A stretch of 64,000 nt of DNA, from positions 67,768,001-67,832,000 of the forward strand of contig NC_086108.1 in NCBI RefSeq assembly GCF_963921235.1. The letters are read 5' to 3'. Shown here piece after piece: positions 3,738 to 61,554 of the stretch; positions within the stretch are counted from its first letter, which is position 1, and every line of letters starts with the position of its first letter. The stretch is from Mobula hypostoma (Eukaryota). The notes under the pieces were generated by a model, which was not told the DNA's origin, ran no database searches, and saw only the letters and a program-made list of their open reading frames with translations. The position numbers and the translations under genes were made by a program.

Positions 3738-4210
3738 TGGCCAGGGGGGTTGGGGGGGTGAGGTGGTGGGGGACAGGTGGCAGAGAAGCACTGCCAGGGG
3801 TGGGGGGGGGTGAGGTGGTAGGGGACAGGTGGCAGAGAAGCAGTGCCAGGGGTGGGGGGGTGAGGTGGTAGGGGACAGGTGGCAGAGAAGTACTGCCAGG
3901 GGTGGGGGGTGAGGTGGTAGGGGACAGGTGGCAGAGAAGTACTGCCAGGGGTGGGGGGTGAGGTGGTAGGGGATAGGTGGCAGAGAAGTGGTGCCAGGGG
4001 TGGGGGGGTGAGGTGGTAGGGGACAGCTGGCAGAGAAGTGCTGCCGGGGGGGGGGTTGGGTGAGGTGGTAGGGGACAGGTGGCAGAGAAGTACTGCCAGG
4101 GGTGGGGGGTGAGGTGGTAGGGGACAGGTGGCAGAGAAGTACTGCCAGGGGTGGGGGGTGAGGTGGTAGGGGACAGGTGGCAGAGAAGCACTGCCAGGGG
4201 TGGGGGGTGG
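3738..4210 (+). repeat. G-rich minisatellite, ~49-52 bp unit, about 9.5 copies
   Basis: Repeating unit CTGCCAGGGGT(G)nTGAGGTGGTAGGGGACAGGTGGCAGAGAAGTA; length varies only in the G run. Confidence 0.95.
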
Positions 4211-13723: not shown

Positions 13724-14219
13724 TTGTGCCTTTCTGCTTGTTTCCCAGGACAGAAAAATTCCAGGATCCATCCAGACCTTACCTTAACCACATTGCATCT
13801 TTCCATTATATAATTCTCATTGCATTTAAGTAGTATGGGCTAATTTTGTGGTGCCCTGGGCTCATAAAGAGATAATTAGTCTATGATTATAATGTTTAGA
13901 ACTGCCTGCACCCAACAATCATGTTGCCGTATTATAGCCCAAGACTCCATTAAGGGGTAGCATGAGGATAGTGTATCAAAAGAATGGAAATATCTTAATT
14001 GCTTATTGTGATCTATTTACATGGATGATGCAATCTGGCCATCGTGATTTTTACTAGGACAAACATAGAATACAGTTGAAATGAAGAGTCAAACTCAAAT
14101 ATCAGCTTGTTTTCCCTCTTTATAGAAACATAGAAACATAGAAAATAGGTGCAGGAGTAGGCCATTCGGCCCTTCGAGCCTGCACCGCCATTTATTATGA
14201 TCATGGCTGATCATCCAAC

Positions 14220-17200
14220 TCAGAACCCAGCCTTCCCTCCATACCCCCTGACCCCTGTAGCCACAAGGGCCATATCTAACTCCCTCTTAAACATAGCCAA
14301 TGAACTGGCCTCAACAGTTTGCTGTGGCAGAGAATTCCACAGATTCACCACTCTCTGTGTGAAGAAGTTTTTCCTAATCTCGGTCCTAAAAGGCTTCCCC
14401 TCTATCCTCAAACTGTGACCCCTCGTTCTAGACCTCCCCAACATCGGGAACAATCTTCCCGCATCTAGCCTGTCCAACCCCTTTAGGATTTTATACGTTT
14501 CAATCAGATCCCCCCTCAATCTTCTAAATTCCAACAAGTACAAGCCCAGTTCATCCAGTCTTTCTTCATATGAAAGTCCTGCCATCCCAGGAATCAAACT
14601 GGTGAAGCTTCTTTGTACTCCCTCTATGGCAAAGATGTCTTTCCTCAGATTAGGAGACCAAAACTGCACACAATATTCCAGGTGTGGTCTCACCAAGGCC
14701 TTGTACAACTGCAGTAGTACCTCCCTGCTCCTGTACTCGTATCCTCTCGCTATAAATGCCAGCATACCGTTCGCCTTTTTCACCGCCTGCTGTACCTGCA
14801 TGCCCACTTTCAATGACTGGTGTATAATGACACCCAGGTCTCGTTGCACCTCCCCTTTTCCTAATCGGCCACCATTCAGATAATAATCTGTTTTCCTATT
14901 TTTGCCACCAAAGTGGATAACTTCACATTTATCCACATTAAATTGCATCTGCCATGAGTTTGCCCACTCATCCAACCTATCCAAGTCACCCTGCATCCTC
15001 TTGGCATCCTCCTCACTGCTAACACTGCCACCCAGCTTCGTGTCATCCGCAAACTTGGAGATGCTGCATTTAATTCCCTCATCCAAGTCATTAATATATA
15101 TTGTAAACAACTGGGGTCCCAGCACTGAGCCTTGCGGTACCCCACTAGTTACCGCCTGCCATTCTGAAAAGGTCCCGTTTATTCCCACTCTTTGCTTCCT
15201 GTCTGCTAACCAATTCTCCACCCACACCAATACCTTACCCCCAATACTGTGTGCTTTAAGTTTGCACACTAATCTCCTGTGTGGGACCTTGTCAAAAGCC
15301 TTTTGAAAATCCAAATATACCACATCCACTGGTTCTCCCCTATCCACTCTACTAGTTACATCCTCAAAAAATTCTATGAGATTCGTCAGACATGATTTTC
15401 CTTTCACAAATCCATGCTGACTTTGTCCGATCATTTCACCGCTTTCCAAATGTGCTGTTATCACATCCTTGATAACTGACTCCAGCAGTTTCCCCACCAC
15501 CGACGTTAGGCTAACCGGCCTATAATTCCCCGGTTTCTCTCTCCCTCCTTTTTTAAAAAGTGGGGTTACATTAGCCACCCTCCAATCCTCAGGAACTAGT
15601 CCAGAATCTAACGAGTTTTGAAAAATTATCACTAATGCATCCACTATTTCTTGGGCTACTTCCTTAAGCACTCTAGGATGCAGACCATCTGGCCCTGGGG
15701 ATTTATCTGCCTTCAATCCCTTCAATTTACCTAACACCACTTCCCTACTAACATGTATTTCACTCAGTTCCTCCATCTCACTGGACCCTCTGTCCCTTAC
15801 TATTTCTGGAAGATTATTTATGTCCTCCTTAGTGAAGACAGAACCAAAGTAATTATTCAATTGGTCTGCCATGTCCTTGCTCCCCATAATCAATTCACCT
15901 GTTTCTGTCTGCAGGGGACCTACATTTGTCTTTACCAGTCTTTTCCTTTTTACATATCTATAAAAGCTTTTACAGTCCGTTTTTATGTTCTCTGCCAGTT
16001 TTCTCTCATAATCTTTTTTCCCCTTCCTAATTAAGCCCTTTTTCCTCCTCTGCTGAACTCTGAATTTCTCCCAGTCCTCAGGTGAGCCACTTTCTCTGGC
16101 TAATTTGTATGCTTCTTCTTTGGAATTGATACTATCCCTAATTTCTCTTGTCAGCCACGGGTGCACTACCTTCCTTGATTTATTCTTTTGCCAAACTGGG
16201 ATGAACAATTGTTGTAGTTCATCCATGCAACCTTTAAATGCTTGCCATTGTATATCCACTGTCAATCCTTTAAGTGTCATTTGCCAGTCTATCTTAGCTA
16301 ATTCACGTCTCATACCTTCAAAGTTACCCCTCTTTAAGTTCAGAACCTTTGTTTCTGAATTAACTATGTCATTCTCCATGTTAATGAAGAATTCCACCAT
16401 ATTATGGTCACTCTTACCCAAGGGGCCTCTCACGACAAGATCGCTAATTAACCCTTCCTCATTGCTCAAAACCCAGTCCAGAATAGTCTGCTCTCTAATT
16501 GGTTCCCCAACATGTTGGTTCAAAAAACCATCCCGCATACATTCCAAGAAATCCTCTTCCTCAGCACCTTTACCAATTTGGTTCACCCAGTCTACATGTA
16601 GATTGAAGTCACCCATTATAACTGCTGTTCCTTTGTTGCACACATTTCTAATTTCCTGTTTAATACCATCTCCGACCTCACTACTACTGTTGGGTGGCCT
16701 GTACACAACTCCCACCAGCGTCTTCTGCCCCTTAGTGTTACGCAGCTCTACCCATATCGATTCCACATCTTCCCGGCTTATGTCCTTCCTTTCTATTGCG
16801 TTAATCTCTTTTTTAACCAGCAACGCCACCCCACCTCCCCTTCCTTCATGTCTATCCCTCCTGAATATTGAATATTCCTGAACGTTGAGCTCCCATCCCT
16901 GGTCACCCTGGAGCCATGTCTCTGTGATCCCAACTATATCATAATCATTAATAACAATCTACACTTTCAATTCATCCACCTTATTACGAATGCTCCTTGC
17001 ATTGACACATAAAGCCTTCAGGCGCTCTTTTACAACTCTCTTAGCCCTTGTACAATTATGTTGAAAAGTGGCCCTTTTTAATGCTTGCCCTGGATTTGTC
17101 GGCCTGCCACTTTTACTTTTCTCCTTTGTACTTTTCGCTTCTACGCTCACTTTACACCCCTCTGTCTCTCTGCACTGGTTCCCATCCCTCTGTTGTGAAC

Positions 17201-17261
17201 TAACCTCCTCACGCCTAGCCTCTTTAATTTGATTCCCACCCCCCAACCATTCTAGTTTAAA
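14220..17261 (-). pseudogene. CR1 ORF2, APE endonuclease + reverse transcriptase, with one in-frame TAG at 16959-16961
   Basis: ORFs 16959-17246 and 14220-16829 share a frame; EN motifs NARS, GITETW, YRPP, GDFN, SDH; RT motifs YLDFQKAFD, GVPQGSVLGP, KFADD. Confidence 0.92.
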
Positions 17262-18088
17262 GTCACCTCAGTAGCCCCCGCTAATCTCCCTGCCAGGATA
17301 TTGGTCCTCCTAGGATTCAAGTGTAACCCGTCCTTTTTGTACAGGTCACGCCTGCGCCAAAAGAGGTCCCAATGATCCAAAAACTTGAATCCCTGCCCCC
17401 TGCTCCAATCCCTCAGCCACGCATTTATCCTCCACCTCATCGCATTCCTACTCTCACTGTCGCGTGGCACAGGCAGTAATCCCGAGATTACTACCTTTGC
17501 GGTCCTTTTTCTCAACTCCCTTCCTAGCTCCCTATATTCTCCTTTCAGGACCTCATCCCTTTTCCTACCTATGTCATTGGTACCTATATGTACCACGACC
17601 TCTGGCTCCTCACCCTCCCACTTCAGGATATCTTGGACACGATCAGAAATATCCCGGACCCTGGCACCAGGGAGGCAAACTACCATCCGGGTCTCTGGAC
17701 TGCGTCCACAGAATCGCCTATCTGACCCCCTTACTATCGAGTCCCCTATCACAACTGCCCTCCTCTTCCTTGCCCTACCCTTCTGAGCTACAGGGCCAGA
17801 CTCTGTGCCGGAGGCACGGCCACTGTTGCTTCCCCCAGGTAAGCTGTCCCCCCCAACAGTACTCAAACAGGAGTACCTGTTGTTAAGGGGCACAGCCACC
17901 GGGGTACTCCCCATCACCTGACTTTTCCCCTTCCCCCTCCTAACCGTGACCCACTTGTCTGCCTCCCGTGGCCCCGGCGTGACCACCTGCCTTCCACTCC
18001 TCTCTATCACCTCCTCACTCTCCCTGACCAGACGAAGGTCATCGAGCTGCAGCTCCAGTTCCGTAACGCGGTCCCTTAGGAGCTGCAT
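17252..18088 (-). CDS. CR1 ORF1, coiled coil plus SGNH/GDSL esterase domain (N-terminus missing)
   Basis: VIGDSIVR, HIGTND and DGLHL esterase blocks; heptad LLRDRVTELELQLDDL. Confidence 0.9.
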   Translation of the reverse strand: MQLLRDRVTELELQLDDLRLVRESEEVIERSGRQVVTPGPREADKWVTVRRGKGKSQVMGSTPVAVPLNNRYSCLSTVGGDSLPGGSNSGRASGTESGPVAQKGRARKRRAVVIGDSIVRGSDRRFCGRSPETRMVVCLPGARVRDISDRVQDILKWEGEEPEVVVHIGTNDIGRKRDEVLKGEYRELGRELRKRTAKVVISGLLPVPRDSESRNAMRWRINAWLRDWSRGQGFKFLDHWDLFWRRRDLYKKDGLHLNPRRTNILAGRLAGATEVTLN

Positions 18089-20054
18089 CTCCTATGATGA
18101 TGCTGACCACGTTACTGTGTATTCAAAACTTTTTCTAAAACAAGAAGGTTGAAATTACTGGTGATGCATTACCTGATGAATGCCTTTAATTGTGTTAAAA
18201 CATCTCGTAATAGCAATATGTAACAGAATGTAAATTTATGAAAGAATAAAATGCAATAGCATCATTTCTAAGGGTGGTTGAATTTTGTGACCAGATTTTT
18301 TTCTAGTCACAGGCCTACTATAATAACTATAAATGTTAGGTTCAGATTTCCCCATGGATATCAACTGCTCTAATATGGATTGTGCAGATTTCTCCCTGGT
18401 TACAGCAAGGTAACAAAAAGATCTTCAGTATGAACCTTTATATAGGCAGAAAACTCTTTTCATGACTGTAAAGCTACAATTTCCTCATGAACAAGCTAAC
18501 TGATTACAGCTGTCATTATGGGGTCTGACTGAAGTAAAATTTTAAACAATGGCTCCTAAGTGTAATTCTGGACATAAAGCTTACCACCGCTGTTGTTTAC
18601 TCTTATATCTACAGACCGGTGAACTCTACAAATGCAGCACATGGAATGCAGAATTAAAGACTGTTACATGTCTGAACTTCACAACTTCCTTTTCAAAACA
18701 TGGTCAGGCATAAAATAAAATAAATTCTTACAGAAAACAATTGTTGGGAATAATGCAGGAAGTATATTTGAAAAAGCAATAATTTTAAATACTGCATTTA
18801 GCATCCATCCCATTTGCTCCATACAGTTGTTTCCTAAGGGAAAACATATATACTTGCAACTCTTCGAAACCACCAGTACACTGAAATCATTTCAAAATCA
18901 CATTCATGGGGAAACTATTGCCTGATTAAATGATTGCATCTATTAGCTCCGTCATCAAATCAATCTTTATGGTTAATATTGATAGCATTATTACCCATTG
19001 AAAAATGTTGTTTTATCATATGATTAATAACCAAACAATTAAAACCTCATGATTAACAGGTAAGAAGTATATAGGTATACCCCTTAACGGACATGGTTTA
19101 TTGAAAATCTCAGGTGAAGGTCAGATGGATTGCAAATGCCTCACACAGTGGAGTCCATGGACAACTTGTGCTTTTTATAAAAGATGCTGATAAAATAGAA
19201 AAGTGCCAGAAGCTACATGGTGTGTCTTTCTATATTATTCCACATCCGAAATTATTTCCAATGGTTTCTTATACCATCTCCATAACCTCTGCTGTTGCAA
19301 AGGAATGCAGAAGTTTCTTCAGTTCGATGATTAATATACCATAGCTGTGAAGGATAGTTGTCCGATATGGTAATTAATTAGATCACTGTCTGGGGAGCAG
19401 TGGAAGACTGCAAGCAGGTATATTCACAATAACTAGATGAACATCTGTAAAAATATGTAGCAGAGTGCTGTAAAATGGGGTAAGTGTAGGTCAGGGTTCC
19501 CTCCTGCACAGTACCAGCATTCCTAAAGACACATTTCCATGTTCCACAGATTGTTGCATTAGGTGATCTAGTTCAGTGAAAGTTCCTTTTGCGATGTAAA
19601 CACATTGCTCCTCTGTGAAGTTGAAGTATTAATAGGCCTTAAAGACTCATAATGTGCAGACACAAGCATTTGCTCTCCTTTTCTCTCTTCACCCAGTCAA
19701 ATCTGCTTATCCTTATATTCTTGAGTGCCCACCCACAGCCCTACTGAAAAAGGTAAATTCACTATTGCCCAAGTCAAAGAAAGGAGTCCAACATTGCCAC
19801 AAACTTCTCAGGAGTTACAAGTCTGTTGCAGTATCCAAAATTGAGGCTAAAAAGAATGCTTAAACACTGAGCAGCTATCTGAAAGGATAAGCCATTGACT
19901 AAATGATACCCTGTAAAAGTGCTGCTGAAAGGATTTTGTTACTATCATTAACAGCCAAATAAGTTCATGATCTGGTAACTCAGGCACTGGGAAAGCTCAG
20001 GCTCACAAAAAGTTATTTGAAACAAGCAGAAGAATTTCATGGAAGTATAAATAA

Positions 20055-22624: not shown

Positions 22625-23900
22625 CTTATCGCTCAAATCGATCCACTGATGAAGTAATAGCCTTTACCCTCCACTCTGTCCTGTCCCACCTGGAAAATGG
22701 GGTCTGATATGCCAGACTGCTGTTTATGGACTTCAGCTCGGTGTTCAACAATGTCATACACCAGAAACTGGTGGGAAACCTGTCCTCGCTGGGTCTCAGC
22801 ACCTCCCTCTGCAATTATATACTGGTGTACTGGACTTCATAACAGTAAGGCCACAGTCTGTCCATTTAGGTAGCAACGTCTCTTGTTCCATTATGCTGAG
22901 CACTGGCACTCCCCAAGGCTATATGCTGTTGATATTTCTGACGCATGACTGTGTCGCAGAATCTAGCTCAAACCATACCATCAAGTTTGCGGATGACACA
23001 GCAGTAATTGGCCTTATCAAGGACGATGATGAAATAGAGTATAGAGAGGTTGTAGAGTGGCTGGTGGATTGGTGTGAGAAGAACAACCTAAGCCTGAACA
23101 TGGAGAAGACAAAGGAGATCATTGTGGACTTCAGGAAGGTGCAGACAGACCATCTCCCTCTGCGAATACATGGATCCTCTGTAGAGAGAGATTTGTGCAC
23201 CAAGTTCCTGGGAGTTCACATCATGATGACTTCACCTGGTCCCTTAACATCACCTTCCTGAACAAGAAGGCACAGTGGTACCTCCACTTCCTAAAGAGAT
23301 TGAGGCCCCCCCTCCCATCTTAACTGCATTTTACAGGAGTACGATTGAGGGTGTCCTGACAAGCTGCATCTCCATCTAGTATGGGAGCAGTCCAGCATCA
23401 GACCAGAAGTCCCTACTAAGGACAGTAAGAACAGCCAAGAGGATCATAAGGTCTACCTACCATCCATCAGGGACATTTATCAGGAGTGCTGCATATGCAG
23501 GGCCCTTAGTATTATTAAGGATCTCATCCATCCAGAATCCTCTTTGATTTTCAACCATCAGGCAGGAGACTATGATGTACACAAACAAGAACGGTCAGGG
23601 TGAGAAACACTTTCTTCCCCCAGTCTATTAGGCTTCAGAACTCCCAGTTGCATCAAATTCAAAGTGTCACTGGTTAATCTGTTCCATACCTTACAATATT
23701 TAATATTAATGCTCTTTACTTTTTTATTTATATATAGATTTTATCCTATCTTCATAAGTTATCATTTGTTATGTGTACTACTGTGCTATACAGCCTGGTT
23801 CAAAGAAATGTTATCTCATTTCTATATACATTTTATGGTTATATACGTCATATACATGAATGTAGTTAAATGACAATAAACTTCATTTGACTTGACTTTT
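22625..23900 (+). mobile_element. Rex1/Babar-clade LINE, 5'-truncated and degenerate
   Basis: [49 protein letters not shown] plus TTGAC repeat tail. Confidence 0.85.
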
Positions 23901-38139: not shown

Positions 38140-39360
38140 AATCAGAATCAGAATCAGAATCATAGGCATGTGTCATGACATTTATTAACTTAGCAGCAGC
38201 AGTTCAAAGCTGTACATAATATAGAAGAAGAAGAGGAAAAATAATAATAACCAATCGATCAATTACAGTATAAAGAGTGAGGTAGCGTCCACGGGTTTAA
38301 TGTCCATTTAGCAATCGGATGGCAGAGGGGAAGAAGTTGGTCCTGAATCGCTGAGTGTGTGCCTTCAGGCTTCTGTACCTCCTACCTTATGGTGACAGTG
38401 AAGAAAGGGCATGCCCTGGGTGATGGAGGTCTTTAATAATGGACGCTGCCTTTCTGAAACACTGTCTTTCTTCCCTAAAGATGTCCTGGGTACTTTGTAG
38501 GCTAGCACTCAAGATGGAGCCAACTAAATTACAACCCTCTGCAGCTTCTTTCAGTCCTGTGCAGTAGCCCCTCCATACCGGACAGTGATGCAGCCTGTCA
38601 GAATGCTCTCCACGGTACAACTATAGAAGTTTTTGAGTGTATTTTGTTGACATGACAAATCTCTTCAAACTCCTAATGAAGTATAGCCGCTGTCTTGTCT
38701 TCTTTATAACTGCATCGATATGTTGGGACCAGGTTAGGTCCTCAGAGATCTTGACACCCAGGAACTTGTAAATGCTCACCCTCTCCACTTCTGATCCATT
38801 TGTGAGGATTGGTATGTGTTCCTTCATCTTACTCTTCCTGAAGTCCACAATCGTTGAGTGAAAGTTTGTTGCTGTGACATCACTCCATGAGTTGGCATAT
38901 CTGCCTTTCATCTTCATCTGAGATTCTACCAACAATGGTTGTATCATCAGCAAATTTATAAATGGTATTTGAGATATGCCGACCCACACAGTATAGAGAG
39001 AGTAGAGCAGCGGGCTAAGCTCACACACCTGAGGTGCACCAGTGCTGATTGTCAGCAAGGAGGAGATATTATCACCAATCCGCACAGATTCTGGTCTTCC
39101 AGTTAGGAAGTCGAGGATCCAGTTGCAGAGGGAGGTACAGAAGCCCAGGTTCTGCAACTTCTCAATCAGAATTGTAGGAATAATGGTGTTGAATGCTGAG
39201 CTATAGTCGATGACAGCATCCTGACATAGGTGTTTGATTGTCCAGGTGGTCTAAGGCCGTGTGAAGAGCTATTCAGGTTGCATATGGAATTAACCTATTA
39301 TGGTGAAACACAAATTGCAATTGGTCCAGGTCCTTGCTGAAGCAGGAGTTCAGCCTAGGG
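38140..39360 (-). mobile_element. Rex1/Babar LINE, 5'-truncated
   Basis: [49 protein letters not shown]; (ATCAGA)n tail at 38140-38161. Confidence 0.85.
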
Positions 39361-44249: not shown

Positions 44250-46510
44250 CAATCAGAATCAGGTTTACTATCACTGGCGTACGCTGTGAAATTTTTTAAC
44301 TTAGTGACAGCAGTGCAATGCACTACATAATAACATAGAAAAAATGTGATTTACAGTAAGTATATATATCAGAACAAGAATCAGAATCAGGTTTATTATC
44401 ACTGGCATGTGACGTGAAATTTGTTAACTTAGCAGCAGCAGTTCAATGCAATATGGTACATAATCTAGCAGAGAAAAATAATAATAAATAAAATAAAAAA
44501 TAAACAAGTAAATGAATTACATATAGTGAATAGATATTAAAAATGTACAAAAACATAAATACCGTATATTTAAAAAAAAAAGTGAGGTAGTGTCCAAAGA
44601 TTCAATGTCTATTTAGGAATCAGATGGCAGAGGGGAAGAGGCTGTTCCTGAATCGCTGAGTGTGTGCCTTCAAGCTTCTGTACCTCCTACCTGATGGTAA
44701 AAGTGAGAAAAGGGCATGCCCTGGGTGCTGGAGGTCCTTAATAATGGACACTGTCTTTCTGAAGATGACCTGGGTACTTTGTAGGCTAGTACCCAACATG
44801 GAGCTGACTAGATTTACAACCCTCTGCAGCTTCGTTCAGTCCTGTGCAGTAGCCCCTCTATACCAGCAGACAGTGATGCAGCCTGTCAGAATGCTCTCCA
44901 CAGTACAACTACAGAAGTTTTTGAGTGTATTTGTTGACATGCCAAATCTCTTTAAACTCCTCATAAAGTATAGCCGCTGTCTTGTCTTCTTTATAACTAC
45001 ATGGATATGTTGGGACCAGGTTAGATCCTCACAGGTCTTGACACCCAGGAACATGTTAAAGGACCTCAGTCTCCTCAGGAAATAGAGACGGCTCTGACCC
45101 TTCTTGTAGACAGCCTCAGTGTTCTTTGACCAGTCCAGTTTATTGTCAATTCGTATCCCCAGGTATTTGTAATCCTCCACCATGTCCACACTGACCCCCT
45201 GGATGGAAACAGGGGTCACCGGTGCCTTAGCCCTCCTCAGGTCTACCACCAGCTCTTTAGTCTTTTCCACATTAAGCTGCAGATAATTCTGCTCACACCA
45301 TGTGACAAAGTTTCCTACAGTAGCCCTGTACTCAGCTTCATCTCCCTTGCTGATGCATCCAACTATGGCAGAGTCATCAGTAAACTTCTGAAGATGACAA
45401 GACTCTGTGCAGTGGTTGAAGTCCGAGGTGTAAATGGTAAAGAGAAAGGGAGACAAGACAAGACAGTCCCCTGTGGAGTCCCAGTGCTGCTGATCACTCT
45501 GTCGGACACACAGTGTTGCAAGCACATGTACTGTGGTCTGCCAGTCAGGTAATCAAGAATCCATGACACCAGGAAAGCATCCACCTGCATCGCTGTCAGC
45601 TTCTCCCCCAGCAGAGCAGGGCAGATGGTGTTGAATGTACTGGAGAAGTCTTCTTTGGCATTGGTATAACTGTTGCCTTTTTGAAGCAAGTGGGAACTTC
45701 CACCCAGAGCAGTGAGAGGTTGAAAATGTCCTTGAATACTCCCGCTAGTTGGTTGGTACAAGTTTTCAGAGCCTAACCAGGTACTCCATCGAGACCTTCT
45801 GTCTTGTGGGGGTTCACTCTCTTTAAAGACAGCCTAACATCGGCCTCTGAGGCAGAGAGCACAGGGTCATCAGGTGTAGCAGGGATCTTCACAGCTGTAG
45901 TTGTGTTCTCCCTTTCAAAGTGTGCATAGAAGGCGTTGAGTTCATCTGGTAGTGAAGCATTGCTGCCTTTCATGCTACTGGGTTTTGCTTTGTAGGAAGT
46001 AATGTCTATATATATATATAAGTGTGTTTGTTTGTTTGTGTGTGTGTGTGTGTGTATATACACATCAAATAGTTAAATTAAATAAGTAATGCTAAAACAG
46101 AAACTGGTAGTGTTCATGGTTTCAATGTCCATTCAGAAATGGCAGAGGGGATGAAGCTCTTCCTGAATCACTGAGTGTGTGCCGTCAGGCTTCTGTACCT
46201 CCTTCCTGATGGCAACAATGAGAAGAGGACATGTCCTGGGTAGTGGGGGTCCTTAATGATGGACACATTTCCTTGAAGGTACTGTATCTTGGATACTACA
46301 GAGGCTAGTGCTCATGACGGAGCTGACTAATATTACAACTCTCCTCAGCTTACAATGATGTGCACATAGCAGATGGCGGCAAAGCCAGTCAGAATACTCT
46401 CCATGGTACATCTGTAGAAATTTTTGAGTGTCTGAGATGACATTGCAAATCTCCTCAAACTCCTAATGCAATATAGCCGCTGTCTTGCCTCTCTATAGCT
46501 GCATAAAGAT
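44250..46510 (-). mobile_element. Nested Rex1/Babar LINEs (inner ~44370-46005) inside a split CR1 fragment
   Basis: Two AATCAGAATCAGGTTT tails; LSPFLFTIYTSD, LQKFTDDS, YKYLG, LPDELNAFYAHF; outer copy resumes at ~46065 after a TA/GT microsatellite. Confidence 0.8.
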
Positions 46511-54697: not shown

Positions 54698-55414
54698 AGC
54701 TTCAGTTGCTGGATTGTTCCTGTTCATACCCTCTGTCTGAATCTCTTCTCAGCCCCTTCCTCCTAAAGCCTTGCCTTGCCTTGTCTTGCCTAGCCTCACC
54801 TGTAACCCTTGCCTGCAACCTTTGTCTGCACTGCAGTCAAGTTCAGCTGCTGGAGCAAGATAAGAAACTAAATATCGTTGTTTTGAACTGTCTCTGTCCA
54901 CACCTTTGCTAGGTAGGTCCGGTCATTTGCTGCTACCTAGTGTTGGAATCCATCTCTGTGTCCACATCTTCACTAAGTAGGTCTGGCCGTTTGCCGCTAC
55001 CTAGTGTTGGGATCCATCTCTGTGTCCACGTTTTCGTTAGATAGGTCCGGCTGTTTGCCGCTACCTTGAGTGAAAACTGTCTGTGTTCTGAGTACAAGTC
55101 CTGGCCCTATGTCTTGCTCCCTGGGGGGGGGGGGGGTCCTGACTCTGTGTAGAGCTCCAGCCCCAAGTCCTGTTCCCAAGGAGGGGTCCTGGCTCTGTGT
55201 TCCATGTCCCTGTGTTCCTGTCTCTCCCAAGACCAAGGCTCTGTGTTCTGCGTTCCTGTTGTCCTCGTCCAAGGCTCCGCGCGTCCAGTCCTCGTCCAAG
55301 GCTCTGAGGTTCCTGTCTCCCAAGACTACGTCATGTCTTTGCTCAGTTCCGGAGTCTGAGCCCGAGTCAAGACCCAGGTTCTGGGTCCTTGTCCAGTCTC
55401 TGGCTCGGAGTCTG

Positions 55415-55520
55415 AACCCAAGCCTCGTCATGTCCTCGCCTCGAGGAACCCAAGCCTCGTCATGTCCTCGCCTCGAGGAACCCAAGACTCGTCATGTCCT
55501 CGCCTCGAGGAACCCAAGCC
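55415..55520 (+). repeat. ~32-bp tandem repeat (about 3 copies) inside the LTR
   Basis: AACCCAAGCCTCGTCATGTCCTCGCCTCGAGG repeated. Confidence 0.85.
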
Positions 55521-55795
55521 ATGTCCAGTCCTGTAGCCACGTCATGTCCTCGTCTAGTTCTGGGGTCTGAGCCTGAGTCAAGACCCAGGTTCTGGGTCTT
55601 TGTCCAGTCCCTAGCTCGGAGTCCAAGCCCAGGCTCCTAGTTCCCAGTTCCTTGTCCTGGTCCCACTGCCTAGCCAATGTCCTAGCGCAAGTCTGTGTTC
55701 TTGTCCCAGCTCTCTAGTCAAGTCCTGTTCCTAGTACTTCAGTGCCTGTGTCTTGCATTTGGGTTTGCCACCAGCGCCCCCCATATGACACTATG

Positions 55796-56820
55796 AAATA
55801 TTGAGCTGCTAATCCTGCCCCCTCCTGCAAACAAGTGCCACTAATGGCTACAATATCATAATTCTATGTGTCGATCCATGCCCTAAGTTCACTCGCTTTT
55901 CCTACAGTAATTCTTATAATGAAATTTATGCAGCTTAGAACATCAGTCCCACCATTATCAACCTTTTGATTCCTGACTTTGTAAGTAGGTTTAACAACAT
56001 TTCTTCACAACTACTGCACTATCTGGTCTTGACCTCTGGTTCCCATACCCCTGCAACTCTAGGTTAACACCCCCCCCCCCCACCCCACCCACCCCCGTGC
56101 AGCAGCAGCAAATCTTCCCATTAGGATATTAGTCCCGTCCTGTTCAGGTGCAAGCTATCTCCCCTGTGCAAGTCCCACCTTCTCTGGAAGAGGGCCCAGT
56201 GATCCAAAAATCGAAAGCCCTCCTGCCTGTACCAACTACTTAGCTATGTGTTAAACTCTATGATCTTCCTTCTGGCTTCACTAGCACATGGCTCAGCAAT
56301 TCTGAGACCTCAAACCTGGACATCCTGTCCTTTATCTTAGCTTACTTTCTTCCCTGAACTTACTTCTCAGGACTTTGTCACCCATCCTACCTATGTTATT
56401 AGTCCCAATGTGGACCATGACTTCTGGCTGTTCACCCTCCCACTTAAGAATGCTGTGGACTCAATCCGAGATTTTTCTGACCTTGGCACTGGGGAGGCAA
56501 CAAACTGTGCGGGAATCCCGTCCTTGTCCAGAGAACCTCCATTCTGTTCTGCAAACCAATGAATCCCCTATCACAACAGCTTGCGTCTTCTCCCCACTTC
56601 TCTTCTGAGCCACCGAGCCAGACTCGATGCCTGAGACCTGACAGCTGCAGCTTCTCTCTGGTAGGTCATTTCCCCCAACAATATTCCAAGTAGTATGCTT
56701 ATTATTGAGGGGAGTGGCCAAGGGGTTGTCTAATCCCTTTCCCTCTCCTGACTGTCTCCCAGGTACCTACCTCCTGCATCTTAGGGATGACTACCTTGTG
56801 TATTTTCCTATCTGTCACCT
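55796..56820 (-). mobile_element. Degenerate CR1, ORF2 N-terminus and ORF1 esterase
   Basis: AVVIGDSLVCRT..RTVCCLPSAKVRKISD, homologous to ORF1 at 17252-18088. Confidence 0.85.
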
Positions 56821-59171: not shown

Positions 59172-61554
59172 TAGTCAGTGAGCCAGGACCCCAAATTTGG
59201 GCCACCAGTACCACCTGGGGGGAATAATTCTTATAGTGATTTTTGGCAAGGTGTACATCCCTAGTGCTAAAAAATGTGATAGCATTGCAGCGGTGGTAGC
59301 TTTCCCCTTTGGGCAGATCCCTGTGGACCAGGCTATTGAAGCCACAGTGAACAAAGACACACAGACTCCTGGAGGCACATCACGGTTCAGCCTGAATGCT
59401 GGAGCTATCAAGCGTTACTACATAACAGCTGAGCACCACAGTGCATTCCTGGGACAGTTAAAGGAGATGGTGCAAGGCAACAAATCAGAGCTTTGTCATA
59501 TGGAGCTACAGCAGCCAAGAATCCAGAAAGATGAAGAAGCAGTTCAGCAATGATATGTATAAGAAGAGAGAAGTGAAATCAAATGGGAGGGTGATCATCT
59601 TGAAAGCAGACAGGTCTTTGTTTGAACGCATCATAGTGATGGCACAAGGGTGCAGTCTACGTATGGAGCATATCCTTTCTCATCTCCTTGGACCATTGCC
59701 CTGGGCCCTGTCCACACCAGAAGGATTGCTGAGAAAGACAAATAAAGCTACCTTAGCCACAACCTTGCAGAAAAATGTAGTAGTAGAAGAGCAACTCCCA
59801 GGAAACTCTGCTACAGTGGTTGATGGAATGAACTTGGTCCAAAGGGTGAAAGGTGATCAAGTTACTTTCAGAGATACTGCCACAACAATTCTGGGTATGG
59901 CTCTGAGGGAAGGCAGTCAGAGTAGCAGAACAGATGTTGTGTTTAACACATACAAGGAGAACTCTATCAAGAATAGTGAAAGATCTCTATGGGGTGAAGA
60001 GACTGGTCATGAGTTGCAAGGTATCACAGACAAACAGATAATGAGGCAGTGGAGGAGCTTCCTGACCAAAGTCAGTAACAAAAATAGTCTCATTGGCTTC
60101 ATAGTCCATGAATGGAGGAAGGCGGAGTACAGAGCAAAGCTACAGGAGAAGATTCTGTATACAACTGTGAATGACAAATGTTACAGAATCAAATCTCAAG
60201 ACAGTGAGGAGGTGTCAGCTCTTCAGTGTCAACAAGAAGCGGATGGCTGCCTACTTCTCCATGCTGCCCATGCCACAAGAGAGGGATACCAATCTGTAGT
60301 GATCTGCTCAGAAGACACAGATGTCTTTATCATGTCTTTAGCATTTTGTGACAAGATTGAGGCCCCATTGTTCCAGAAGTTTGGCACTAGAACCCGTACA
60401 AGGCTTGTAGACATCAGGAAGGTTGCTGCCACTGTTGGCATAGAGGTTTGAAGGGCTCTCATCGAGTTGCACGCATATACAGGATGTGACACTGTAAGCA
60501 CTTTTGCAGGCAAAGAGAAGCCAAGTGCCCTAAAACTTCTGACCAGCAACAGGGAAACTCAGGACACATTCTTAGAGTTCGGTCAGGAATGGGACCTCTC
60601 TCCAGAACTGATGGACAATCCGGAGGCATTTACATGTCTCCTATATGCCCCAAAAGCATCGACCACCAAGGTTAATGAGCTCATGTATCACCTTTTCTGT
60701 GCCAAAAAAGGTGAAATCGAAAGTCATCAACTCCCATCATGCAAGGACTGCTTAACAAAACATGTACAGCGAGCCAACTACCATGCTGGTATGCGGAGAC
60801 TATGTTTGGAGAAGGACCCCCAAGTGCCAAGCCCTGTTGGCAGAGGATGGAAGATGGAGAGAGAAGAGGAAGCTGAACAGTTGGTGGTGCACTGGATGGA
60901 AGGCCAGCCAGCACCTGATGCTGTCCTGGATCTACTGGCCTGTAACTGTCCAAAAAAATGTTCACTCCCAAGATGTATGTGTGTTGCAAATGGCCTCAGG
61001 TGTACTGACATGTGTAGACTAGCAGACTGTGAGAACCAGGCATCCACCTAAGAGAGTGTGGAAAGTTCAGATGAAGATGTGGAAGACTTGGAAAATTATT
61101 ATGATTATTTCTAGGTTATGAAAGTACAAAAAACAAAGTATGGAAAGCAGTCTTTGATTAAATATATTCATTTTTCAACCAAATGGGGTCTAGGTTATGG
61201 CCATGTGGAACCCTACATTTGAGTTATTGTACTGTAACTCTATGCTATGACAAAAGCTTAAGATGGTTTTGATTTGATACAACAATATGGAAAATATCAT
61301 GACATTGATAAAACTCCAGAAATTTCCCCAGATGAGGTTTTTCACCTTTTGGGGGGTGGGGTAACATTTTCTGCTGTATTGATGTTAATATGGACTATAT
61401 ACCAAAGGTGATTTCTTATTTGAAGTAATAAAGCTACCACTGGTGCAATGCTATCACATATTTTCTAACTCTAGAGATGTATACCTTGCCAAAAATCACT
61501 ATGAGCATTATTCCCCTCAGGTGGTACCGACCAACCCTACTGGCTCACGGACTA
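59172..61554 (+). mobile_element. Academ-type (XPG-encoding) DNA transposon, internally deleted
   Basis: TAG...CTA termini; imperfect TIRs 59172-59303 and 61430-61554; 3-bp TSD AAT; XPG/FEN1-like and Cys8 coding remnants. Confidence 0.85.
59304..61051 (+). pseudogene. C-terminal part of Academ transposase: XPG/FEN1-like nuclease + Cys8 finger
   Basis: QEADGCLLLHAAHA, SEDTDVF, HAYTGCDTVSTF, LPSC..HVQRANY, CNCPKKCSLPRCMCVANGLRCTDMCRLADC; frame change near 59550 and in-frame TGA at 60449-60451. Confidence 0.85.

What the first reader, a model, noticed from the sequence alone, without database searches (positions are those of the whole stretch)
17225..17270. Candidate -1 programmed ribosomal frameshift fusing CR1 ORF1 to an AUG-less ORF2
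Seen: on the minus strand ORF1 ends ACT TTA AAC TAG, placing U_UUA_AAC (17261-17255) in X_XXY_YYZ register right before the stop. The -1 frame reads TTT AAA CTA GAA TGG TTG GGG GGT GGG AAT, which is the ORF2 frame. ORF2 has no AUG until well inside the endonuclease (IMGDFN); the track's starts are TTG and GTG. A G-rich run TGGTTGGGGGGTGGG starts 5 nt after the heptamer. A decayed CR1 shows a related junction (GTTAACCTAG, ~56063-56077). Known: UUUAAAC is the coronavirus slippery site, while studied LINEs mostly use reinitiation or internal initiation for ORF2. Inference: this family may make a Gag-Pol-like ORF1-ORF2 fusion. I cannot check whether this has already been reported.
Basis: partly seen in the sequence, partly recalled or inferred. 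Interest (0 to 1): 0.8.

Follow-up and report, generated by a model that had tools for sequence, protein, structure and literature searches.

The report
Conserved ribosome-slip site in CR1 LINEs
In this ray-like fish, and in bird-type relatives, a very common jumping gene ends its first gene with the same seven-letter slippery sequence plus a stop, and its second gene continues one base back, in this family with no start codon, so the copying enzyme is likely made when ribosomes slip back one base, as in retroviruses.

Summary
ORF1 (esterase) of a CR1 LINE ends U_UUA_AAC UAG (17261-17252, minus). ORF2 is in the -1 frame, with its first AUG at codon 216, inside the endonuclease. This copy is dead (5'-truncated, nonsense codon), but the family looks autonomous: 7 of 9 copies checked carry a complete -1 ORF. 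The heptamer is invariant in 13 of 13 lineage rows (7 ray, 6 bird-type). The last three ORF1 codons keep their third base in all 13 rows; 0 of 23 upstream codons do. An AUG near the stop occurs in only 5 of 13 rows. The window's family appears to be a recombinant that dropped its sister family's UAAUG stop-start. Best reading: programmed -1 frameshift giving an ORF1-ORF2 fusion (0.8). Against it: no hairpin or pseudoknot downstream, stop-proximal AUGs in some lineages, a GUUAAAC-leaning old family, and no protein evidence. A conserved G-rich motif 11 nt downstream is the candidate stimulator. Not found in print for CR1 in 9 searches, but the key 1997-2003 CR1 papers were unavailable. The scan noted the same thing on other DNA (e1-8041403, e1-9568866).

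The parts
14122..18091 (-). 5'-truncated CR1-clade LINE copy of a young, abundant family (F1), with a short-repeat 3' tail
17252..18091 (-). ORF1, SGNH/GDSL esterase; lacks about the first 32 codons of the 311-aa protein; ends Thr-Leu-Asn-stop
   Evidence: PF13472 E 2.8e-16; longer copies; P0001
17255..17261 (-). Slippery heptamer U_UUA_AAC in register
17252..17254 (-). ORF1 stop directly 3' of the heptamer (TAG here, TAA in families F3-F5)
17235..17244 (-). Conserved G-rich motif (GGGGG-NN-GGG) starting 11 nt after the heptamer; candidate stimulator
14220..17267 (-). ORF2 in the -1 frame: about 85-codon linker, APE endonuclease, reverse transcriptase; broken in this copy by TAG at 16961-16959
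   Evidence: PF03372, PF14529, PF00078
17178..17192 (-). Second G-rich motif; inferred crossover from which the sequence becomes 88-93% like sister family F5
16614..16616 (-). First in-frame ATG of ORF2 (codon 216, within the endonuclease)
14122..14219 (-). 3' UTR with GGCC-loop-GGCC hairpin and repeated tail
56059..56068 (-). Decayed junction of an older CR1 family (F2)

Best explanation
ORF1 of these CR1 LINEs ends in an invariant U_UUA_AAC plus stop with ORF2 in the -1 frame, and a minority of ribosomes likely slip back one base there to make a predicted ORF1-ORF2 fusion of about 1,320 residues (esterase, linker, endonuclease, reverse transcriptase). Most ribosomes would stop and release ORF1p, fixing a high ORF1p-to-fusion ratio as in Gag/Gag-Pol. 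The pause is likely supplied by the stop codon in the next position together with the G-rich motif 11 nt downstream (a bound protein or a weak G-quadruplex), not by a classical pseudoknot. Shown: site, register, nucleotide-level conservation, lack of AUG, open linker. Inferred: slippage, the fusion protein, the stimulator.
For: (1) Third codon positions are invariant in 13 of 13 lineage rows for the last 3 ORF1 codons versus 0 of 23 upstream (7 ray rows alone: 3 of 3 versus 3 of 23). The residue before Leu-Asn varies (T, G, A, D, C, S). TTA is only 16% of Leu codons and AAC 38% of Asn codons in the element. Endonuclease control: 1 of 8 invariant residues keeps its third base. (2) ORF1 homologues end in Leu-Asn: 38 of 47 with a locatable C-terminus, 41 of all 78, and 96 of the 120 listed bird-type hits. 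(3) ORF2 is in the -1 frame with an open linker of varying length (endonuclease motif at codon 38-76 in the 9 of 13 representatives where it was located). (4) No AUG in -1 codons 1-8 in 30 of 30 F1, 18 of 19 F3, 14 of 14 F4 and all 5 F6-F8 copies. A proximal AUG needs 3 changes on the ORF1 tree and sits at two different codons. (5) F1 is 74% like F5 in ORF1 but 88-93% downstream and lacks F5's UAAUG; F1-F5 dN/dS over 300 ORF2 codons is 0.21; 7 of 9 F1 copies read in full have a 1004-1015-codon -1 ORF with first ATG at codon 156-216 (the 9 were the copies of 30 that were open over the part seen). (6) A 27-nt linker deletion shared by 6 of 30 F1 copies keeps the frame. (7) U_UUA_AAC is among the most shift-prone heptamers for mammalian ribosomes (PMC5009743, passage).
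Against: No stable local structure: z +0.18 to +0.62 for four windows; only 1 of 12 lineage representatives has z below -1 over 60 nt; no relevant Rfam hit. In-frame AUG next to the stop in 12 of 15 F5 copies (UAAUG), 4 of 6 bird-type loci and 1 of 9 further F6-F8-like copies. Old family F2: first heptamer base G in 11, T in 8, A in 1 of 20; exact heptamer in 5 of 20, though these copies are decayed and sit behind expanding G tracts. F4 is exact in only 9 of 14. A frame-breaking 16-nt linker deletion is shared by 4 of 19 F3 copies, between direct repeats. The linker shows no purifying selection on residues (11.5 nonsynonymous versus 1.5 synonymous). Lineage rows are related, six are single copies, and F7 and F8 are 94% alike. 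No translation data.
Confidence: 0.8

Rival explanations
1. Termination-reinitiation: ribosomes stop at the ORF1 stop and restart at an AUG or near-cognate codon 0-10 nt away, giving free ORF2p, as in SART1 (UAAUG) or L1. The heptamer would be part of the restart signal.
For: UAAUG in 12 of 15 F5 copies and in L064; AUG at codon 5 in L051, L054 and L056. UAAUG geometry also puts ORF2 in the -1 frame. F1 has TTG at codon 6. SART1 and L1 use termination-reinitiation (PMC3894237, PMC5972666, passages). That L1 tolerates loss of its AUG is hinted in PMC5009743.
Against: It does not explain an invariant XXXYYYZ in register. AUG is absent in 8 of 13 rows, and codon 5 also reads TGG, CCC, TCG or GAC. 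F1 lost UAAUG and still expanded. No conserved upstream UGGGA (calicivirus-type motif 1, recalled): 0 of 30 F1, 1 of 19 F3, 1 of 15 F5, though 13 of 14 F4.
Confidence: 0.12
2. The conservation reflects protein need for a C-terminal Leu-Asn, or simple inheritance; ORF2 starts internally further downstream.
For: Leu-Asn is invariant in alignment A1 (rows were hand-picked, mostly from LN-ending hits). The protein-level test of the preceding residue is weak.
Against: Synonymous positions are fixed only at the heptamer. The first AUG in F1 would delete most of the endonuclease. Linkers of different length all keep the -1 frame.
Confidence: 0.03
3. ORF1 and ORF2 are joined at RNA level, by splicing at the TAG or by polymerase slippage or editing at the T/A runs.
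For: TAG followed by G in some bird-type loci resembles a 3' splice site.
Against: Families F3-F5 have TAA instead of TAG. Runs of three T or A are short for polymerase slippage (general knowledge).
Confidence: 0.03
4. F1 is non-autonomous, mobilised in trans by AUG-bearing F5, and its heptamer is a passenger.
For: F1 and F5 have near-identical 3' UTRs.
Against: Complete ORF2 in 7 of 9 copies; dN/dS 0.21; families with different 3' ends (F3, F7) also lack a proximal AUG.
Confidence: 0.02

Closest known systems
Coronavirus/nidovirus ORF1a/1b -1 frameshift (U_UUA_AAC of IBV; G_UUA form in equine arteritis virus)
   Same: Same heptamer, same register, placed at the end of the upstream ORF with the polymerase in the -1 frame (PMC5009743 passages).
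   Different: No pseudoknot or hairpin predicted 3' of the site; the stop follows directly; the element is a non-LTR retrotransposon.
Dictyostelium TRE5-A / TRE3-A (APE-type LINEs)
   Same: Reviewed as needing a -1 frameshift for ORF2 (PMC5911963 passage).
   Different: Amoeba elements that target tRNA genes; their shift site was not examined here and I did not see the primary evidence.
PRRSV nsp2TF protein-stimulated frameshift
   Same: A linear homopolymer-rich motif 11 nt 3' of the shift site with no RNA structure (CCCANCUCC bound by PCBP and nsp1beta; PMC5009743 passage). The CR1 motif starts at +11.
   Different: The CR1 motif is G-rich and no binding protein is known; the resemblance is in spacing only.
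SART1 UAAUG coupling and L1 termination-reinitiation
   Same: Bicistronic LINE RNA; family F5 has UAAUG.
   Different: They give a separate ORF2p; L1 has a 63-nt spacer; most lineages here lack the AUG.
Vertebrate canonical CR1 with esterase ORF1
   Same: Esterase ORF1 plus APE-RT ORF2 (PMC13343379, PMC4120745, PMC3905857 passages).
   Different: The term 'frameshift' occurs 0 times in these three papers; ORF2 is treated as a separate protein.

Membership tests
CR1-clade LINE with esterase ORF1 | ORF1 with SGNH/GDSL esterase | tested here: met
   PF13472 E 2.8e-16
CR1-clade LINE with esterase ORF1 | ORF2 with APE endonuclease and RT | tested here: met
   PF03372, PF14529, PF00078
CR1-clade LINE with esterase ORF1 | Short-repeat 3' tail instead of poly(A); frequent 5' truncation | tested here: met
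CR1-clade LINE with esterase ORF1 | RT phylogeny within CR1 rather than L2 | not tested
   No reference RT set was fetched; assignment rests on architecture and on ORF1 likeness to bird-type elements
Programmed -1 ribosomal frameshift | X_XXY_YYZ heptamer in the zero-frame register | tested here: met
Programmed -1 ribosomal frameshift | Downstream ORF in the -1 frame, open across the site | tested here: met
Programmed -1 ribosomal frameshift | Heptamer conserved beyond coding need | tested here: met
   3 of 3 versus 0 of 23 third positions; F2 partly deviates
Programmed -1 ribosomal frameshift | Canonical 3' stem-loop or pseudoknot 5-9 nt downstream | tested here: not met
   z near 0; the folding tools do not model pseudoknots, but the purine-rich sequence offers no stem 1
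Programmed -1 ribosomal frameshift | Alternative stimulator (adjacent stop, G-quadruplex, bound protein) | tested here: inconclusive
   Motif conserved; two-tier G4 predicted at +7 in F1, F3 and F5 but not in F6, F8 or 5 bird-type loci
Programmed -1 ribosomal frameshift | Transframe protein made | not testable with these tools
   needs reporter, ribosome profiling or mass spectrometry
Stop-start termination-reinitiation (SART1 type) | AUG overlapping or adjacent to the ORF1 stop | tested here: not met
   0 of 30 copies in the window's family; met in F5 (12 of 15) and 4 of 6 bird-type loci
Stop-start termination-reinitiation (calicivirus type) | Upstream UGGGA motif 1 (recalled) | tested here: not met
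   0 of 30 F1
2A/StopGo LINEs | D(V/I)ExNPGP at the ORF2 N-terminus | tested here: not met
   The linker has only NPGQ, in F1 and F5; motif from PMC3708506

The most novel reading that the evidence does not exclude
Esterase-type CR1 LINEs from rays to birds, the dominant retrotransposons of most vertebrates, make their reverse transcriptase as a Gag-Pol-like fusion by a -1 frameshift kept since the shark-bird split, and the shift is driven not by folded RNA but by a G-rich motif 11 nt downstream that binds a protein (host, or ORF1p itself) or forms a G-quadruplex. It would be a cellular-genome mirror image of the arterivirus PCBP switch, or a first natural quadruplex-stimulated frameshift.
Probability: 0.3. 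Interest if true: 0.9.

Novelty: new variant of a known kind. Interest (0 to 1): 0.72.

Why it matters
How LINEs translate ORF2 is stated as an open question (PMC3894237). CR1-group elements are the dominant retrotransposons in most vertebrates (PMC13343379, abstract listing). A frameshift would mean the active enzyme carries an N-terminal esterase and coiled coil, would explain how RT joins ORF1p particles at a set ratio, and would mean ORF2 starts are mis-annotated throughout fish, reptile and bird genomes. It supplies a short, directly testable cassette and a candidate unusual stimulator; natural G-quadruplex-stimulated frameshifting was 'not currently known but anticipated' in 2016 (PMC5009743).

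Tried and rejected
Local hairpin stimulator: not found. Long-range pairing of the G motif with the 3' UTR: the UTR site ranked first of about 116 sites in two F1 copies, one F3 copy and one F4 copy, but 6th in another F3 copy and 13th in an F7 copy. The UTR is one of few pyrimidine-rich parts, no covariation was seen, and several of the 20 loci scored had rearranged 3' ends or a mis-picked junction; no bird-type 3' end was available. Not supported. RNA evidence: no RNA holder listed. Four runs laid were contigs only; the shown tables list no indel at the heptamer and no joint at the stop, but they are cut and contigs cannot show absence. Natural in-frame fusions: the search among longer proteins gave 3 hits, two gene models and one rearranged ORF, so no support. 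Viral contigs: none. Prokaryote genomes: 5 weak esterase hits, not followed. An own-genome search with P0047 was empty because the cut-off was too strict. Conservation inside one family is uninformative (copies 95-98% alike and selected by similarity) and was not counted as support. Rows dropped before the lineage counts: L105 and L127 (junction deleted), L124 and L128 (upstream indel; L128 still has the heptamer, L124 a one-base variant), F2 (reported apart). Of 25 metagenome loci, 16 were examined at the ORF1 end: 6 intact in frame, 3 with the heptamer after an upstream indel, 1 degraded, 1 without a junction, 5 ending before it; the other 9 matched only the earlier part of ORF1. Papers not held: Alisch 2006, Kojima 2005, Kajikawa 1997 (DOI recalled), Kapitonov and Jurka 2003.

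Full report
What is there. Window 14122-18091 (minus) is a CR1-type LINE: an esterase ORF1 and an endonuclease-RT ORF2. The closest named protein to ORF1 is from a devil ray (96%), so the host is a cartilaginous fish. The copy is 5'-truncated and has a nonsense codon at 16961-16959, where 27 of 30 copies have CAG. ORF1 ends ACT TTA AAC TAG. The -1 frame opens two codons earlier and is the ORF2 frame; its first ATG is codon 216, inside the endonuclease.

The family. An own-genome search gave 822 candidates, 40 scored and 30 fetched, including this copy. Of these, 29 have the heptamer and 30 the TAG; none has an ATG in -1 codons 1-8. Nine were open over the 553-554 codons visible; read in full, 7 of the 9 have a -1 ORF of 1004-1015 codons with the first ATG at codon 156-216. 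Such young copies cannot show selection on the site, so I went to divergent lineages.

Across lineages. Searches with distant ORF1 proteins retrieved further families from the same genome. Exact heptamer: F3 18 of 19, F4 9 of 14, F5 12 of 15, F6-F8 5 of 5, and 10 of 11 further copies. Queries P0011, P0061 and P0050 included the terminal Leu-Asn, which slightly favours those residues but not their codons. Metagenome contigs gave bird-type elements (bird-type by named homologues): 6 intact junctions, all with the heptamer. Anchored on the stop, the 13 rows share 35-94% of the preceding 71 nt. The third base is invariant for the last 3 codons and for 0 of the 23 before. TTA and AAC are minority codons in the element (16% and 38%). 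The stop itself varies between TAG and TAA. At protein level, 38 of 47 and 96 of 120 homologues end in Leu-Asn. The distant bony-fish esterases (30-49% identity; P0072, P0076-78) do not, which marks a boundary; that these are L2-type is my inference from PMC13343379. The old family F2 is the weak spot: G in 11, T in 8 and A in 1 of 20 at the first position. A G_UUA form is used by equine arteritis virus, and these copies lie behind unstable G tracts.

AUG is patchy. F5 has UAAUG (12 of 15), as does L064; three bird-type loci have AUG one codon later; eight rows have none. The label needs 3 changes on the ORF1 tree, at least 2 forced by supported branches. F1 matches F5 at 74% in ORF1 and 88-93% downstream, switching at a second copy of the G motif, in frame. 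I read this as a recombinant that kept its own heptamer, left F5's stop-start behind and still expanded, with ORF2 under purifying selection (dN/dS 0.21 between the two families). The direction of the event is inferred; no outgroup was tested. Linkers of different lengths all hold the -1 frame, so ORF2 translation must begin at or within a few codons of the junction. That leaves slippage or AUG-independent restart, and only slippage explains an invariant XXXYYYZ in register.

Stimulator. No hairpin is predicted. A G-rich motif is conserved instead: -1 codon 7 is GGG in 12 of 12 representatives and codon 9 in 11 of 12, while the flanking residues vary; GGG is 37% of Gly codons in the element. 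The core starts 11 nt after the heptamer, the spacing reported for the protein-bound motif of PRRSV. A two-tier quadruplex is predicted at +7 in F1, F3 and F5; only 5 of 651 windows of the element show one at that offset. It is not predicted in F6, F8 or the five bird-type loci folded. The sense strand is G-rich throughout (32%), so part of this may be composition. A nearby stop strongly aids the umbravirus shift site. Which of these acts is unknown.

Mechanism. Shown: the site, its register, its conservation at silent positions, the missing AUG and the open linker. Inferred: tandem slippage of the Leu and Asn tRNAs, resumption at CUA, a fusion of about 1,320 residues beside abundant ORF1p, and perhaps extra free ORF2p in AUG-bearing lineages. 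Confidence 0.8; reinitiation alone 0.12.

Literature. Nine searches of the open library listed no paper proposing a CR1 ORF1/ORF2 frameshift;'s 369 papers only 25 were listed. I saw passages only (term searches) of PMC5009743 (first 300,000 characters; 'CR1' occurs 0 times), PMC5911963, PMC3894237, PMC5972666, PMC3708506, PMC3905857, PMC13343379, PMC11303007, PMC2734521 and PMC4120745; no supplements were read. A -1 frameshift is stated for Dictyostelium TRE5-A and TRE3-A, so LINE frameshifting is not a new kind. The founding CR1 papers (1997-2003) and Repbase Reports could not be seen and may mention the site. Earlier notes of this scan reached the same reading on other DNA; they are not counted as evidence.

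Verdict. A real, deeply conserved recoding candidate; a new variant of a known kind; interest 0.72.

Noticed in passing
window 17192-17178 (minus); L106-L120: The window's family looks like an ORF1-swap recombinant with family F5, crossing over at a duplicated G motif in the linker.
   Followed up: partly
P0201: A metagenome ORF with endonuclease and partial RT followed by a distant esterase (34% identity) that also ends in Leu-Asn; the order is reversed, so probably a rearranged contig, but it hints that the site extends to distant, possibly invertebrate, CR1s.
   Followed up: partly
P0199, P0029: Stingray gene models read the esterase directly into the F-K-L linker and endonuclease; one is annotated as a hydroxyacid oxidase 2 isoform, likely a mis-annotation of CR1 copies.
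   Followed up: no
window 59462-60451 (+): 329-codon open frame with no Pfam match; possibly a DNA-transposon remnant.
   Followed up: partly
window 54891-55790: Cluster of tandem repeats (64-bp and 32-bp units) next to the decayed CR1, possibly part of another element.
   Followed up: no
window 3745-4210: G-rich minisatellite, 49-bp unit, 9 copies, 93% matches.
   Followed up: no
window 22653-23261, 38621-39250, 44836-45552: RT fragments of another LINE type; the latter two also hit ALKBH8_N.
   Followed up: no
L031-L050, just upstream of the junction: Family F2 carries variable-length G tracts directly 5' of the heptamer, a microsatellite seeded inside ORF1.
   Followed up: no
P0015: A CR1 ORF1 protein is deposited under Pseudomonas aeruginosa on a 4-kb contig, likely host contamination.
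   Followed up: no
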